Source: a virus. Taken from it: a stretch of DNA of 64,000 bases. Positions 8,049 to 40,838 of the stretch are shown here, piece by piece (position 1 is the first letter of the stretch; each line of letters opens with the position of its first letter). The position numbers and the translations under genes are program-made. The notes beneath the pieces are model-generated. The model was not told where the DNA came from. It saw only the letters and a program-made list of their open reading frames with translations, and did no database searches. Where the stretch lies: IMG/VR virus record IMGVR_UViG_3300037483_000076, positions 31,563-95,562 of that record; one strand, given 5' to 3'.

Positions 8049-8186
8049 TGGACTCTAGACAGGATTCGAACCTGTACGACTAATCCCACCTCAATCTTTC
8101 GATATATAGTATTCGTGAATCATAGTCTAAGCGAATACCTAGCGTCTACCACGACTGGGTAACCCAATCCTTTCACCACTAGAGTC
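8049..8186 (-). ncRNA. Expanded tRNA-Leu(UAG)-like RNA (non-canonical, 138 nt)
   Basis: Acceptor GACTCTAG/CTAGAGTC, Leu-type TGGTGAAA..GGTAGACGC, perfect T arm ACAGG-TTCGAAT-CCTGT. Insertions in the D loop, anticodon loop and variable region. Confidence 0.75.
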
Positions 8187-18264: not shown

Positions 18265-18654
18265 TTATTTGTTATTTATTGATAATTCATATTGAGCTTT
18301 ACATATACTAATTAAGTCAGGATCATTAAATGAGTACATATCTGGGATATCTAATACTACACATTTATTAGTAAATCCTAATTCTTCTATCTCATTTTTA
18401 ACTTTGTTATAATTCTCAGAATTAACAAAAACTATTTCGTCTGCCCATGTTACAAGAGCTTCACTAATTGGAATTAATGCATATGATTCCTCTGTACCAC
18501 AATTTCTTACATTATATCCATATTCTCTAATGAGAAAATTTTGTAATGTAGCAGACCTTAGTAATCCAGCAGAACATACAGTAAGTATTTTCTTAATAGT
18601 TCCTTGATAAACATTACTAGTAGTAGCTAATTGATTTTTTGTTCCCTTTATCAT
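18265..18654 (-). CDS. Low-molecular-weight protein-tyrosine phosphatase-like protein
   Basis: P-loop VCSAGLLRS (CX5R), WADEI, LDIPD. Confidence 0.85.
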   Translation of the reverse strand: MIKGTKNQLATTSNVYQGTIKKILTVCSAGLLRSATLQNFLIREYGYNVRNCGTEESYALIPISEALVTWADEIVFVNSENYNKVKNEIEELGFTNKCVVLDIPDMYSFNDPDLISICKAQYELSINNK

Positions 18655-21130
18655 TTCTCTATTTTGTTAATAATTTTATTACATTCATTGATATAATAGT
18701 TATAATTAATATCATATTCTGACATAGATAATTTCTTATATCTATTGAATACTGTGGATAAATATCCTTTTTCAACACTAGTTTCTCTACCATCTTCATT
18801 ACATTTAATAAATGTTTTTCCATTAGTAGATACATAATATCTAACGTTTTTTGATAATTTGTTAGCTATTTGATAAGTTTTTTTAAGTTCGTCAATAGAT
18901 TGATTTAGTGCTGTGGATAATCTAACTCCTTTTTCCATTTCTGGTTTAGTATAGAGATTACCAAGTTCGATCCAATCATATTCTTTTATAAACTCTATCT
19001 TCTCATCTTTATCATTAAAGATTGGGATAATAGGTTCTTGATCGTAATATCTTTCTTCTAACCACCATCCTTTAACGGTTTTAACTCGTTTACAGAAATG
19101 GTATATGTTACCATGATTTAGTATAGTTTCTTCAATAGGTATGTTATTTATGAAGTAATTTGTTAATGCTATACGAACTATGCGCATAGAGTTATTCTTA
19201 TGAATCTCTGACTCTATTTCAAAGTCACCTTTACGTTTAATCTCATTGTTATTATCTAAAGCAATGTAATCGTTTACAGATGTTTGAATTAAGAGTTTGT
19301 AATCTTTGTATTCAAGTTGACCTGATTCACTATTACCTACTTTCTTTTCCCATTCATGACATATATCATAATACTTATTATTGAGATGTTTATCAAATAG
19401 ACACACTATACCATCTGTATTAGCAGATACTACATGTATATTATTTAACTCCATATCTTCTATAAGCATTAGAATCTCAAATTGATTACCAATTGTACAA
19501 GAGAATTGTACTAATGGATCAAATTGCCATGAATTTATTTCATTGGTTTTACCAAAACCTCCCATACCACTATAGTTTTCACTACCGATCAAATACATTC
19601 GCGTTCACGTCTATGCCTAATTGTTTGTGGTCTGGACTATATCTTAATAAACTGAAAGCCAACTTTTACTGCCCTTTGTGGGGCAAGCGACAGGACTCGA
19701 ACCTGTTCTTAATAGTTTATTTTCCTGCATTTCTATTATTTCTAATAGGTCTCTCGACAGTCTCTACGGCTGAATCTAATAAATCCCATATTTGTAATAT
19801 CCGAATCATACGATCCGAATATAAAATTTATTAACCTATGCCTCGGTATTAGCTTGTTATATTTAAGTGTTTATAGAAAGTTGCGAACTTCATATAACTG
19901 GTACACATAATTTAGCTTTCACCGATATTCAGGAATTTAAAAACGGCAGCTACGTTTACCGTTTAAAGCTAATTTAAATACCTCTTGTATAGAGTTATAT
20001 TTAGCTTTCTTTGTTTTCTTATAAGTAGATTTAGCATCTAATCTACGAGATATATTATCTTTATATCCTTGTATCCATGCTTCACCTAAGTGTCTAGGAT
20101 AGAGATTACGTTTGACAATAGCATTTGGGTATTGACTACCTACATCTGCGTCACGAAGTATTTGTGACTCAGTGGGAATTAACTTCCTAGGCTTATCAAC
20201 AGAATGTAATCCTCCTCTAGCTATAGTATAACTAGTATCTTTAAATTCTAAATTAAAGATCTGTTTCTCTCCGTCTGTATCTTGTATTACAGGAGTATCT
20301 CTAATTAGATTATAAAAATCATTAAGTTCTTGTGTCTTAAAGTGTACGTAATTAGGAATACATTGTCCAAATGTAAAATTATCTATAAACTTAGGAAGTA
20401 CTTTAATTTGTTTCCAATCTAATCCTGAGTTCTTAGAGTAATTAAGCTTGTTTAGTTCATCACCAATCTTAACATCATTGTAGTTAATACAATTGATACC
20501 AAACTCAGCTTGTATATCCTTACGTAATTGTAATTTATCCTTACCTTTATATAGAGGATTTTCTGTATCTCCTATAGTAATCTTATAGAATTCATATGTA
20601 GCTAATACATCATTTAAGTTATAAGATAAGATATCAGTTACTTCTTCATCTGTAACATAATGACTAGGTTCAAATGGCATATCCTCGACATTTTCAAAGT
20701 CCATAGCTATTTCTACAGCCTTTAACGAGGTATGTTTAGCTTTATTATCAAAATGCCAGATCTTAAATAGATCTAATTGAGGAATAAGAGTTTTCCATTC
20801 AGGTATACTAGACCATTCTGTATTAATTACTTCATTAGATTTGTTATAAATTAGATTAGTTAAATAATCTGGATATTCTGATATAGAATGTCCAAATAGT
20901 TCTAAATCTTTATATGTTAACAAATAGTGTAATATAGGGTAGTCATAATTTATATTATTAAATCCTATTAATCCCAAAACTTCGGTTTGTAAAAATTTGA
21001 TATATTCTGAAAAGTCATTTCTGGATTTATGTATTACGAATTGTCTAATCTCCTGATTATCTATTGCTAAAAATGTAGCAGTATGAATATTCAACAGTAC
21101 CTCAATATCGTAGACCCAGACTCTCTTCAT
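18651..21130 (-). CDS. polB: Family B DNA polymerase; exons 21130-19958 and 19562-18651
   Basis: Exo I YDIE, Exo II FNNINYD, Exo III YNLND, motif A DVGSQYP, motif B reconstituted as KLALNG|GGFGK, motif C NTDG. The exons join in frame. Confidence 0.92.
19563..19957 (-). mobile_element. Group I intron (395 nt, no homing endonuclease ORF) in polB motif B
   Basis: P1 AACGGU/GCCGUU with U.G at the 5' splice site; P3 UUCCUG/CAGGAA; P AAUAUCGGUGAAA; Q GCUAAUACCGAGG; R GCCGUAGAGACUG; S AAGAUAUAGUCC; terminal G. Removal restores the reading frame. Confidence 0.92.
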
Positions 21131-40639: not shown

Positions 40640-40687
40640 TGGAGTTGAGAGACTTGAACTCTCAAGTTGGCCTGAACCAGTACTCCA
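40640..40687 (-). ncRNA. 48-nt mini-tRNA-like element (acceptor stem, T arm and one short hairpin)
   Basis: TGGAGT-A-CTGGTTCAGGCCAA-C-TTGAGAG-TTCAAGT-CTCTCA-ACTCCA. Confidence 0.55.
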
Positions 40688-40838
40688 AACAATCTCATTC
40701 TTATTATAAAGTTATGATGATTGTTGTTTCTTTACAAATACCGGATGTTTAGCGGTACTTGCTGTTTGTGCTTTTTCTGGGAATAGATTTTTGATTGTAT
40801 CTAATTCCTGTAGTGATTTGAACGTTTTACCAAGTGGT

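What the first reader, a model, noticed from the sequence alone, without database searches (positions are those of the whole stretch)
19679..19706. tRNA 3' end (T arm, 7 nt, discriminator, CCA) embedded in P8 of the group I intron
Within the P8 stem (AATAAACT/AGTTTATT) the intron reads ACAGG-TTCGAGT-CCTGT-CGCTTGC-C-CCA, the exact spacing of tRNA positions 49-76. The CCA can alternatively be folded into a TGCCC/GGGCA hairpin, and a third hairpin AAAG/CTTT follows, making a multiway junction. The T arm differs by one base from that of the RNA at 8049-8186. I do not recall this as a standard intron feature. It may be a captured tRNA fragment or att-like scar, a T-loop tertiary module, or a handle linking polymerase splicing to tRNA-processing enzymes (inference).
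Basis: partly seen in the sequence, partly recalled or inferred. Interest (0 to 1): 0.78.

Follow-up and report, generated by a model that had tools for sequence, protein, structure and literature searches.

The report
tRNA-derived tip on intron arm P8
A self-splicing intron in a sediment phage's DNA polymerase gene carries, at the tip of one outer arm, what is almost certainly the last third of a tRNA gene; it most likely serves as a swappable folded cap and not as a working tRNA part.

Summary
On the minus strand, 19706-19679 reads T arm, 7 nt, C, CCA. It lies inside helix P8 of a 395-nt ORF-less group I intron (19563-19957) that splits PolB motif B (KLALNG|GGFGKT).

It is not chance. The stretch is 27/28 and 26/28 identical to the 3' ends of two real bacterial tRNAs. 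Its T arm occurs in at least 109 IMG/VR loci, mostly tRNAs. The likeness starts at the variable loop.

It is not needed for the intron. The closest phage (PolB 90% identical) has the same intron with a 9-nt P8 loop. Across 57 variants of this lineage the P8 tip is hypervariable. No 5' acceptor partner exists, and RNAfold pairs the CCA into a hairpin.

Two hints suggest the T arm itself is retained. A second P8 variant, from another sediment sample, keeps the T arm 20/20 but not the acceptor or CCA. Two sister introns carry a similar T-arm module in P7.2.

Best reading: a captured tRNA 3' fragment kept as a folded cap (0.55). Rivals are a T-loop tertiary brace and a handle for tRNA enzymes. This scan noted similar tRNA-like P8 tips on other phage DNA. 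I found no published description in the papers searched.

The parts
19563..19957 (-). ORF-less group I intron (395 nt) in the PolB gene, inside motif B
   Evidence: phrog_1252 is split at 409/410. Intronless homologues P0002 and P0003 read KLALNGGGFGKT. Rfam Intron_gpI gives 18.6 bits, E = 0.017. The core 19-mer is shared with 83 IMG/VR loci.
19958..21130 (-). PolB exon 1, ending ...KLALNG
18651..19562 (-). PolB exon 2, starting GGFGKTNE...
19941..19964 (-). P1: exon AAACGGU (19964-19958) pairs with the internal guide GCCGUUU (19947-19941), with U.G at the 5' splice site
   Evidence: read from the sequence; identical in L001
19722..19935 (-). Span of P3: UUCCUG (19935-19930) pairs with CAGGAA (19727-19722). 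It encloses P4 (UCGGU 19925-19921 / ACCGA 19847-19843), P5-P6 and the P7 5' strand.
   Evidence: these blocks are nearly invariant in WIN, L001, L049, L037 and L006
19733..19758 (-). P7.1 (GUC-GAGA-GAC, 19758-19749) and P7.2 (CUAUUA-GAAA-UAAUAG, 19748-19733). Both are absent from L001.
19646..19721 (-). Whole P8 domain, 76 nt: an 8-bp closing stem AAUAAACU (19721-19714) / AGUUUAUU (19653-19646) around a 60-nt interior
   Evidence: A P8 helix abuts J8/7 in 56 of 57 family variants, with 47 different stems.
19707..19713 (-). AUUAAGA, like a tRNA variable loop. The same flank occurs before the T arm of the phage tRNA-Gln in L116 and of the L049/L037 module.
19690..19706 (-). T arm: ACAGG-UUCGAGU-CCUGU with G53-C61 and the canonical T-loop consensus
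19679..19689 (-). Acceptor 3' strand look-alike CGCUUGC, discriminator C, then CCA
   Evidence: 27/28 and 26/28 identity of the 28-mer to real tRNA 3' ends; no 5' partner
19668..19688 (-). Predicted hairpin 2: GCU-U-GCCC / GGGC-AGU with loop CACAAA. It uses the discriminator and the first two C of CCA, so it excludes a free CCA.
   Evidence: prediction only
19655..19666 (-). Predicted hairpin 3: AAAG-UUGG-CUUU
   Evidence: prediction only
19634..19645 (-). J8/7 and the P7 3' strand, AAGAUAUAGUCC. The P7 pair is GACUG (19762-19758) with UAGUC (19639-19635).
19563..19631 (-). P9 region: ACCAC (19631-19627) pairs with GUGGU (19570-19566); the terminal G is at 19563
   Evidence: The conserved 3' end GGUAGUGAAAACUAUAGUGGUAYG also occurs in introns of other genes (L049, L003).

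Best explanation
The 28-mer is the 3' third of a tRNA gene: variable loop, T arm, acceptor 3' strand, discriminator and an encoded CCA. It was captured into the terminal loop of P8 of a mobile, ORF-less group I intron. The tRNA origin is close to shown. The route is inferred: this intron lineage lives largely in phage tRNA genes, so illegitimate recombination with tRNA DNA has many opportunities. In this lineage the P8 tip is an insertion-tolerant, frequently exchanged peripheral site. The captured piece now folds locally into a T-arm hairpin and two small hairpins closed by the 8-bp P8 stem. It acts as a stable cap that keeps P8 shut. It is not required for catalysis and does not work as a tRNA end, because the acceptor strand has no partner and the CCA is internal and probably paired. 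That it is dispensable rests on an inference: the nearest relative's intron lacks it, and I assume that intron splices. Of the captured piece, the autonomously folding T arm appears to be what is retained.
For: Origin. The 23-mer has exact matches in a tRNA-Gly and a tRNA-Arg(ACG), and the full 28-mer is 27/28 and 26/28 identical to them. The T-arm 19-mer is in at least 109 IMG/VR loci; of 82 sites read, 65 are called tRNA and 42 are tRNA-Arg(UCU). The variable-loop flank matches a phage tRNA-Gln. G+C is 61% against 30.5% for the genome.

Dispensable and swappable. L001 (PolB 90% identical) has the same intron at the same site with a 6-bp P8 and a 9-nt loop, and run X2 holds the same short form. 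The 57 distinct P8 variants have interiors of 3-155 nt and 47 different closing stems. One sediment run holds a variant with a near-identical core but a different P8 interior and no P7.1/P7.2.

Opportunity for capture. Of 85 loci sharing the core 19-mer, 27 (ARAGORN intron calls) to 49 (T arm in the expected 3'-exon position) sit in tRNA genes, and one 3' exon (L085) has an identical 17-nt T arm.

Not a working tRNA end. The intron has no GCAAGCG-type partner. The one exact copy in the genome has no tRNA-like context. ARAGORN, also at relaxed thresholds, and the Rfam tRNA model give nothing here.
Against: A purely neutral passenger would be expected to decay, but the T arm is perfect. In run X3 a 150-nt contig keeps the T arm 20/20 while the 54 nt between it and J8/7 are unrelated. 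L049 and L037 carry a T-arm module in P7.2 that is 84% identical, while their other peripheral parts are 53-70% identical. These points suggest some selection on the T arm beyond capping. No donor tRNA was found in this phage, in L001's phage or in IMG/VR. No splicing or structure data exist.
Confidence: 0.55

Rival explanations
1. The T arm is a functional T-loop tertiary module. The T loop (U54-A58 reverse Hoogsteen pair, with a pocket between positions 57 and 58) would receive a purine from another loop and so brace the P3-P8 / P7.1-P7.2 side of the ribozyme. A candidate purine is a G of the neighbouring UUGG loop, which would mimic the tRNA elbow; another peripheral loop is also possible. 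The rest of the captured tRNA piece would be a spacer.
For: The T loop has the full canonical consensus. The T arm is retained 20/20 in a second P8 variant whose downstream 54 nt are unrelated. A similar T-arm module with the same AUUAAG flank sits in P7.2 of L049 and L037 and is better conserved (84%) than their other peripheral parts. Another intron (L087, Rfam 61 bits) carries a whole tRNA-like cloverleaf between P7 and P3' (tRNA model 20.9 bits, E = 0.13). T arms inside introns are far above chance.
Against: The nearest relative lacks any such module and has no P7.1/P7.2 either. No receptor has been identified. There is no covariation, because only single sequences are available. L037 has C56U. 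Identity to common tRNA T arms fits recent capture as well as it fits selection. A published list of RNAs that contain T loops does not include group I introns (bioRxiv 10.1101/2022.12.26.521914).
Confidence: 0.22
2. The module is a protein handle or decoy. The T arm would recruit tRNA-binding proteins that need only a T-arm hairpin. From established knowledge, TruB and TrmA act on 17-mer T-arm substrates and have chaperone activity. Binding could help the intron fold, or the tRNA-like piece could titrate a host factor that targets tRNA.
For: The 17-nt T arm meets the known minimal substrate features: G53-C61, U54, U55, C56 and A58 (read from the sequence). The phage carries two other non-canonical T-arm-bearing RNAs.
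Against: Nothing beyond the sequence likeness supports this reading. The relative lacks the module. Without an acceptor helix, RNase P, CCA-adding enzyme and synthetases are unlikely partners. The host is unknown.
Confidence: 0.07
3. The whole 76-nt P8 domain is a circularly permuted tRNA mimic. P8 would stand in for the anticodon stem. AUUAAGA would be the variable loop, followed by the T arm. A loop-capped acceptor-like hairpin and a D-like hairpin with a GG loop would complete it. The result would be an L-shaped, tRNA-like body displayed on the intron.
For: The RNAfold minimum-energy structure is exactly this four-way junction. Its linker lengths (7, 1, 1 and 1 nt) are close to those of tRNA (4-5, 0, 2 and 1 nt). 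The domain is 76 nt long.
Against: The fold is not significant (z = -1.69; 12 of 200 shuffles fold as well). The D-like loop has only 4 nt. The acceptor-like helix is out of register with the T stem. Run X3 shows that the part after the T arm is not conserved.
Confidence: 0.05
4. It is an att-like scar of site-specific integration, or a chance look-alike.
For: tRNA 3' ends are common att sites (established knowledge).
Against: Chance is excluded. Among the representative genomes of 185,579 prokaryote species the 23-mer occurs in only two (a Hyphomicrobiales and an Oligoflexia MAG), and none is Bacteroidota. The element lies inside a ribozyme helix, not at a genome junction.
Confidence: 0.03

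Closest known systems
Group I introns in phage DNA polymerase and other core genes (crAss-like PolB introns in Yutin et al. 2021, PMC7886860; SPO1-type and cyanophage DNA polymerase introns; review PMC3984707)
   Same: A self-splicing-type intron without an ORF, inserted in a conserved polymerase motif. It has P1 with U.G, a terminal G, P3-P9, and P7.1/P7.2 extras.
   Different: The P8 tip carries a tRNA-derived cassette. The core sequence is closest to the small IC3-type introns of tRNA genes. Rfam scores it only 18.6 bits.
IC3 group I introns of bacterial tRNA genes and of the tmRNA T loop (Williams 2020, bioRxiv 10.1101/2020.01.27.920355; PMC11915505)
   Same: The J8/7-P7 core (AAGAUAUAGUCC) and the P7 5' strand (GUAGAGACU) are the same. 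Many members with the identical 19-mer sit in anticodon loops of phage tRNA genes.
   Different: There the tRNA surrounds the intron. Here a piece of tRNA lies inside the intron, and the host gene encodes a protein.
T-loop structural motif in non-coding RNAs (RNase P, T-box, riboswitches, rRNA, group II introns, viral tRNA-like structures; bioRxiv 10.1101/2022.12.26.521914)
   Same: A five-base T-loop fold on a short stem, used as a docking module in long-range contacts.
   Different: Here the whole 17-nt arm is sequence-identical to real tRNA T arms, which argues for borrowing and not convergent evolution. No receptor is known. That paper's list does not include group I introns.
tRNA-like 3' structures of plant viral RNAs and the Mauriceville retroplasmid (established knowledge)
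   Same: A T arm followed by an acceptor-like strand and CCA.
   Different: Those sit at the 3' end of the RNA and have a paired or pseudoknotted acceptor. Here the CCA is internal and the acceptor strand has no partner.
tRNA-shaped or decayed tRNA pieces at P8 tips of other phage group I introns, noted earlier in this scan (e1-5665744, e1-5840802, e1-5969400; AI notes, unpublished)
   Same: The same place (the P8 tip), the same kind of host (phage introns) and the same conclusion (a borrowed, swappable cap).
   Different: Those are described as whole cloverleaves or as two halves around an endonuclease gene. Here only the 3' third, from the variable loop to CCA, is recognisable.

Membership tests
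Group I intron | Interrupts a gene; removal restores an uninterrupted conserved sequence | tested here: met
   The phrog_1252 profile is continuous across the gap (409/410). Intronless homologues 80% and 77% identical read KLALNGGGFGKT.
Group I intron | P1 with a U.G pair at the 5' splice site, and a terminal G at the 3' splice site | tested here: met
   AAACGGU pairs with GCCGUUU, and G 19563 precedes GGAGGU. This is read from the sequence; splicing was not shown.
Group I intron | Conserved core: P3, P4, P6, P7, J8/7 | tested here: met
   The GUAGAGACU and AAGAUAUAGUCC elements and the P3 and P4 pairs are present. The 19-mer is shared with 83 loci. L087, another intron found through its J8/7 12-mer, scores 61.2 bits.
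Group I intron | Reaches the Rfam RF00028 gathering score (50 bits) | tested here: not met
   There is no hit in the window-wide or 2.5-kb searches. A 431-nt search gives 18.6 bits, E = 0.017. Close relatives are also sub-threshold: L001 18.1 bits and L049 23 bits. The model was seeded without bacterial introns (bioRxiv 10.1101/2020.01.27.920355).
Group I intron | Self-splicing activity | not testable with these tools
   No RNA run held this sequence; the one RNA contig laid belongs to a relative and is unspliced.
tRNA (functional gene or tRNA end) | Cloverleaf with a paired 7-bp acceptor stem | tested here: not met
   ARAGORN, also at relaxed thresholds, and the Rfam tRNA model find nothing here. 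No 5' acceptor strand lies in the intron. The one GCAAGCG in the genome has no tRNA context.
tRNA (functional gene or tRNA end) | T arm with G53-C61 and the loop UUCRANY | tested here: met
   ACAGG-UUCGAGU-CCUGU; identical to T arms of many phage tRNAs.
tRNA (functional gene or tRNA end) | 3'-terminal, single-stranded NCCA | tested here: not met
   The CCA lies 116 nt from the intron's 3' end and is predicted to pair in hairpin 2.
T-loop tertiary motif | T-loop consensus on a closing pair | tested here: met
   read from the sequence
T-loop tertiary motif | An intercalating receptor base, or a conserved long-range partner | tested here: inconclusive
   There are no homologues with the same insert for covariation. 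The one hint is the GG in the neighbouring UUGG loop.

The most novel reading that the evidence does not exclude
T-arm and tRNA-derived modules are a recurrent, selected class of peripheral element in phage group I introns. They would be placed on P8 or on P7.2 (whether these two helices are close in the folded ribozyme I did not verify). There the T loop would make a tertiary contact or recruit a T-arm-binding protein such as TruB or TrmA as a folding chaperone. This would be a natural 'tRNA scaffold' on a ribozyme, and the first use of the T-loop motif reported for group I introns.
Probability: 0.2. Interest if true: 0.65.

Novelty: new variant of a known kind. Interest (0 to 1): 0.4.

Why it matters
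Group I introns in phage polymerase genes are known, so the intron itself is ordinary. The finding has three points of interest.

- It shows directly that pieces of tRNA genes are recycled as building blocks at the tips of ribozyme arms.
- It links a protein-gene intron to a lineage that mostly lives in phage tRNA genes. A 2014 review (PMC3984707) still described all phage introns as lying in protein-coding genes.
- If the T arm proves to be selected, it would add group I introns to the RNAs that use the T-loop motif, and it would give a natural precedent for tRNA-scaffolded ribozymes.

In practice, such inserts help explain why Rfam misses these introns and why PolB is annotated as two ORFs.

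Tried and rejected
- **Exact 28-mer in IMG/VR:** no match. blastn of the whole intron against 50,697 phage records also gave no match.
- **Donor tRNA:** I searched IMG/VR for the same acceptor 3' strand plus C73. This gave 20 loci; none has this T stem, and ARAGORN calls none of them a tRNA. L001's phage record holds only one T loop, most likely the counterpart of the 8050-8185 tRNA (not checked), so no donor is there.
- **T loop 35-65 nt upstream of J8/7:** in IMG/VR this found only L049 and L087. The metagenome scan gave 26 loci, mostly chance, plus duplicates of L049 and L087. None is like the window.
- **Split-tRNA idea** (a 5' half encoded elsewhere): the only GCAAGCG on the minus strand (46782) lies in a 5' leader with no D arm, so I rejected it.
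- **My first 3' splice site** (after G 19590, giving KLALNG|IGSENYSG) was wrong. The in-frame conserved stretch is the intron's own 3' end. I corrected the site to 19563 using intronless homologues and introns in other genes.
- **PolB relatives in IMG/VR:** among the 80 best, only L250 (the same contig as L001) has this intron. An apparent T arm near a J8/7-like word in L262 is an ordinary downstream tRNA.
- **Sequencing runs:** only the probable source run holds the full stretch. The RNA run (X4) holds only a relative's unspliced fragment, so there is no evidence on expression or cleavage.
- **Relaxed ARAGORN call for L049** (a 'tRNA-Lys' that uses P7 as its acceptor stem): I judged it forced.
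Full report
**What is there**

The finding lies on the minus strand. Read 5'->3', positions 19706-19679 are ACAGG-TTCGAGT-CCTGT-CGCTTGC-C-CCA. This is a 5-bp stem closed by G-C, a seven-base loop with the full T-loop consensus, seven bases, one base and then CCA. That is the spacing of tRNA positions 49-76.

**The surrounding element is a group I intron**

- Two minus-strand ORFs (19937-21130 and 18651-19598) match one DNA polymerase family (phrog_1252) at profile positions 52-409 and 410-652.
- Intronless homologues that are 80% and 77% identical read ...FKLALNGGGFGKTNE.... The exons therefore join as KLALNG|GGFGKT, and the intron is 19563-19957 (395 nt).
- I first placed the 3' splice site at 19590, because the next 27 nt are in frame and conserved in the nearest relative. 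That was wrong. The stretch GGTAGTGAAAACTATAGTGGTAYG is the intron's own 3' end. It recurs in introns that sit in P-loop ATPase genes (L049, L003), and its GUGGU pairs with ACCAC just after P7. First-stage notes on this genome (e1-6007631, e1-6007620) had the correct ends.
- P1 is AAACGGU/GCCGUUU with U.G at the splice site. P3 is UUCCUG/CAGGAA and P4 is UCGGU/ACCGA. P7 is GACUG/UAGUC, flanked by the classic GUAGAGACU and AAGAUAUAGUCC elements. P7.1 (GUC-GAGA-GAC) and P7.2 (CUAUUA-GAAA-UAAUAG) are both present.
- Rfam finds nothing in the whole window or in 2.5 kb. On 431 nt it gives Intron_gpI at 18.6 bits, E = 0.017, and puts the T-arm region in the loop of the model's P8.

**Placement in P8**

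AATAAACT (19721-19714) and AGTTTATT (19653-19646) enclose 60 nt, and the second strand abuts J8/7. I collected 83 IMG/VR loci that share the 19-mer AAGATATAGTCCAGACCAC. Of 57 distinct sequences between P7 and J8/7, 56 have a helix of at least 4 bp ending at J8/7, with 47 different stem sequences. P8 is therefore well supported by covariation. Its interior ranges from 3 to 155 nt, which marks it as a site of expansion and exchange.

**Not chance, and tRNA-derived**

- GGTTCGAGTCC with up to 1 mismatch occurs twice in the window against 0.14 expected.
- The genome holds 3 perfect T arms against 0.19 in Markov controls.
- The 28-mer has 61% G+C in a genome of 30.5%.
- One scan covered one representative genome for each of 185,579 prokaryote species. 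It found the 23-mer CAGGTTCGARTCCTGTCGCTTGC exactly twice, both inside real tRNAs: a tRNA-Gly and a tRNA-Arg(ACG). Their 3' ends are 27/28 and 26/28 identical to the window's 28-mer.
- The 19-mer ACAGGTTCGAGTCCTGTCG is in at least 109 IMG/VR loci. Of 82 sites read, 65 are called tRNA by ARAGORN, and 42 of those are tRNA-Arg(UCU).
- The seven bases before the T arm (ATTAAGA) match the variable loop of a real phage tRNA-Gln(UUG), which reads TAAGA-ATAGG-TTCGAGT-CCTAT. The likeness therefore starts at about position 44.
Its acceptor differs, so it is not the donor.
- No donor was found.

**Not a working tRNA end**

The intron contains no partner for CGCTTGC. The single GCAAGCG on that strand of the genome (46782) has no tRNA-like context. 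ARAGORN, also at relaxed thresholds, and the Rfam tRNA model find nothing here. RNAfold pairs the discriminator and the first two C of CCA into a GCCC/GGGC hairpin. The 76-nt P8 domain becomes a four-way junction: the P8 stem, the T arm, hairpin 2, and AAAG-UUGG-CUUU. The topology is that of a circularly permuted cloverleaf, but the fold is no better than many shuffles (z = -1.69). I give that reading little weight.

**Comparative evidence**

- The nearest phage (L001, PolB 90% identical) has the homologous intron at the same site, with an identical P1 and core. Its P8 is ACTACT, a 9-nt loop, AGTAGT, and it has no P7.1/P7.2. A 92-kb contig in sediment run X2 has the same short form. The cassette is therefore not needed by this intron type, assuming the relative's intron splices.
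- An independent freshwater-sediment run (X3) gives two informative fragments. One 150-nt contig has the J8/7-P7 core with 1 mismatch and AACAGGTTCGAGTCCTGTCG with 0 mismatches. However, 54 unrelated bases lie between them, where the window has 42. The T arm is kept, and the acceptor, CCA and both small hairpins are not. A second contig is nearly identical to the window from P6 to the start of P8. It lacks 26 nt (the size of P7.1 plus P7.2) and continues with a different P8 interior. These are single short contigs, so they are hints only, but they show module swapping on a constant core.
- Two sister introns (L049, which equals L107, and L037) have ordinary P8 hairpins. They carry ...ATTAAG-AAAGG-TTYGAAT-CCTTT... 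inside P7.2. That region is 84% identical between them, against 53-70% for their other peripheral parts, and the P7.2 closing stem differs with compensating changes.
- A more distant intron (L087, which equals L108; Rfam 61.2 bits) has a whole tRNA-Met-like cloverleaf between P7 and P3' (Rfam tRNA 20.9 bits, E = 0.13; ARAGORN at 80% threshold).
- Of the 85 family loci, 27 are called intron-containing tRNAs by ARAGORN, and 49 have a T arm where a tRNA 3' exon would put it. One of these exons (L085) has the identical 17-nt T arm.

**Interpretation**

The origin as a captured tRNA 3' fragment is close to shown. This intron lineage moves between phage tRNA genes and protein genes, so it has constant opportunity to recombine with tRNA DNA. 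Its P8 tip tolerates and exchanges inserts.

The function is inferred. The piece most likely serves as a self-folding cap that holds P8 shut. The T arm, a very stable autonomous hairpin, is the part that persists.

Retention of the T arm in X3, and of the related module in P7.2 of other introns, leaves real room for a T-loop tertiary contact (about 0.2) or for a T-arm-binding protein (about 0.07). An att scar and chance are effectively excluded.

**Literature and earlier notes**

- Group I introns in crAss-like PolB genes are published (PMC7886860).
- A list of RNAs that contain T loops names group II introns but not group I introns (bioRxiv 10.1101/2022.12.26.521914).
- Searches for tRNA-like or pseudo-tRNA elements within group I introns returned nothing relevant.
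- A 2014 review says all phage introns then known were in protein genes (PMC3984707).
- This scan had already noted tRNA-shaped or decayed tRNA pieces at P8 tips of other phage introns (e1-5665744, e1-5840802, e1-5969400). These are unchecked AI notes. My independent analysis reaches the same kind of conclusion for a case in which only the 3' third of the tRNA survives.

**Limits**

- There is no RNA evidence for splicing, structure, modification or cleavage.
- There are no homologues with the same insert for covariation.

Noticed in passing
window 8050-8185, minus strand: A 136-nt tRNA-like gene with a perfect acceptor and T arm. ARAGORN finds it only when introns are allowed, and calls it tRNA-Ser(CGA) with a 49-nt insert at position 34. 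The first-stage note reads it as Leu-like with a CU-UAG-A loop. Its identity is unresolved; it could be a suppressor or otherwise non-canonical tRNA.
   Followed up: partly
window about 40640-40690, minus strand: A mini tRNA-like element: GGAGT ... TGAGAG-TTCAAGT-CTCTCA-ACTCC-A. It has a perfect T arm and a 5-bp acceptor-like closure but no anticodon arm. It is the third perfect T arm in a genome where 0.19 are expected.
   Followed up: no
IMG/VR loci L004-L086: Between 27 and 49 of the 85 loci that share the intron core 19-mer are group I introns in anticodon loops of phage tRNA genes. Leu(UAA) is most common, followed by Arg(UCU), Phe and others. A 2014 review stated that all phage introns then known lay in protein-coding genes.
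   Followed up: partly
L087:11055-11352 (same sequence in L108): A group I intron (Rfam 61.2 bits) with a 76-nt tRNA-Met(CAU)-like cloverleaf inserted between P7 and P3'. The acceptor stem has mismatches, so it may be a decaying nested tRNA gene.
   Followed up: partly
L096:3649-3798 (similar in L091 and L101): In AT-rich, possibly mitochondrial contigs, a high-scoring tRNA (56.6 bits) lies directly upstream of a J8/7-P7-P9 fragment of a group I intron (34.6 bits, partial). The tRNA is either nested in an intron arm or sits next to an intron remnant.
   Followed up: partly
L117, L120, L123, L129 and others (human-gut phage contigs): A recurring tRNA-like sequence of about 70 nt, GGCAAGT...GTTCGAGTCCGTG-C-GCTTGCC-A, that ARAGORN does not call. 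It has one extra base between the T stem and the acceptor.
   Followed up: no
PolB homologues P0005, P0021, P0067, P0086, P0095, P0099, P0102: These PolB ORFs break off at four or five slightly different points within KL(A/S)LNGGGF. This suggests several independent intron insertion sites in motif B.
   Followed up: no
window 19805-19830, minus strand (intron P5-P6 region): ATTCGGAT occurs twice as a direct repeat six bases apart (ATTCGGAT-CGTATG-ATTCGGAT). L001 has an unrelated, longer sequence here.
   Followed up: no
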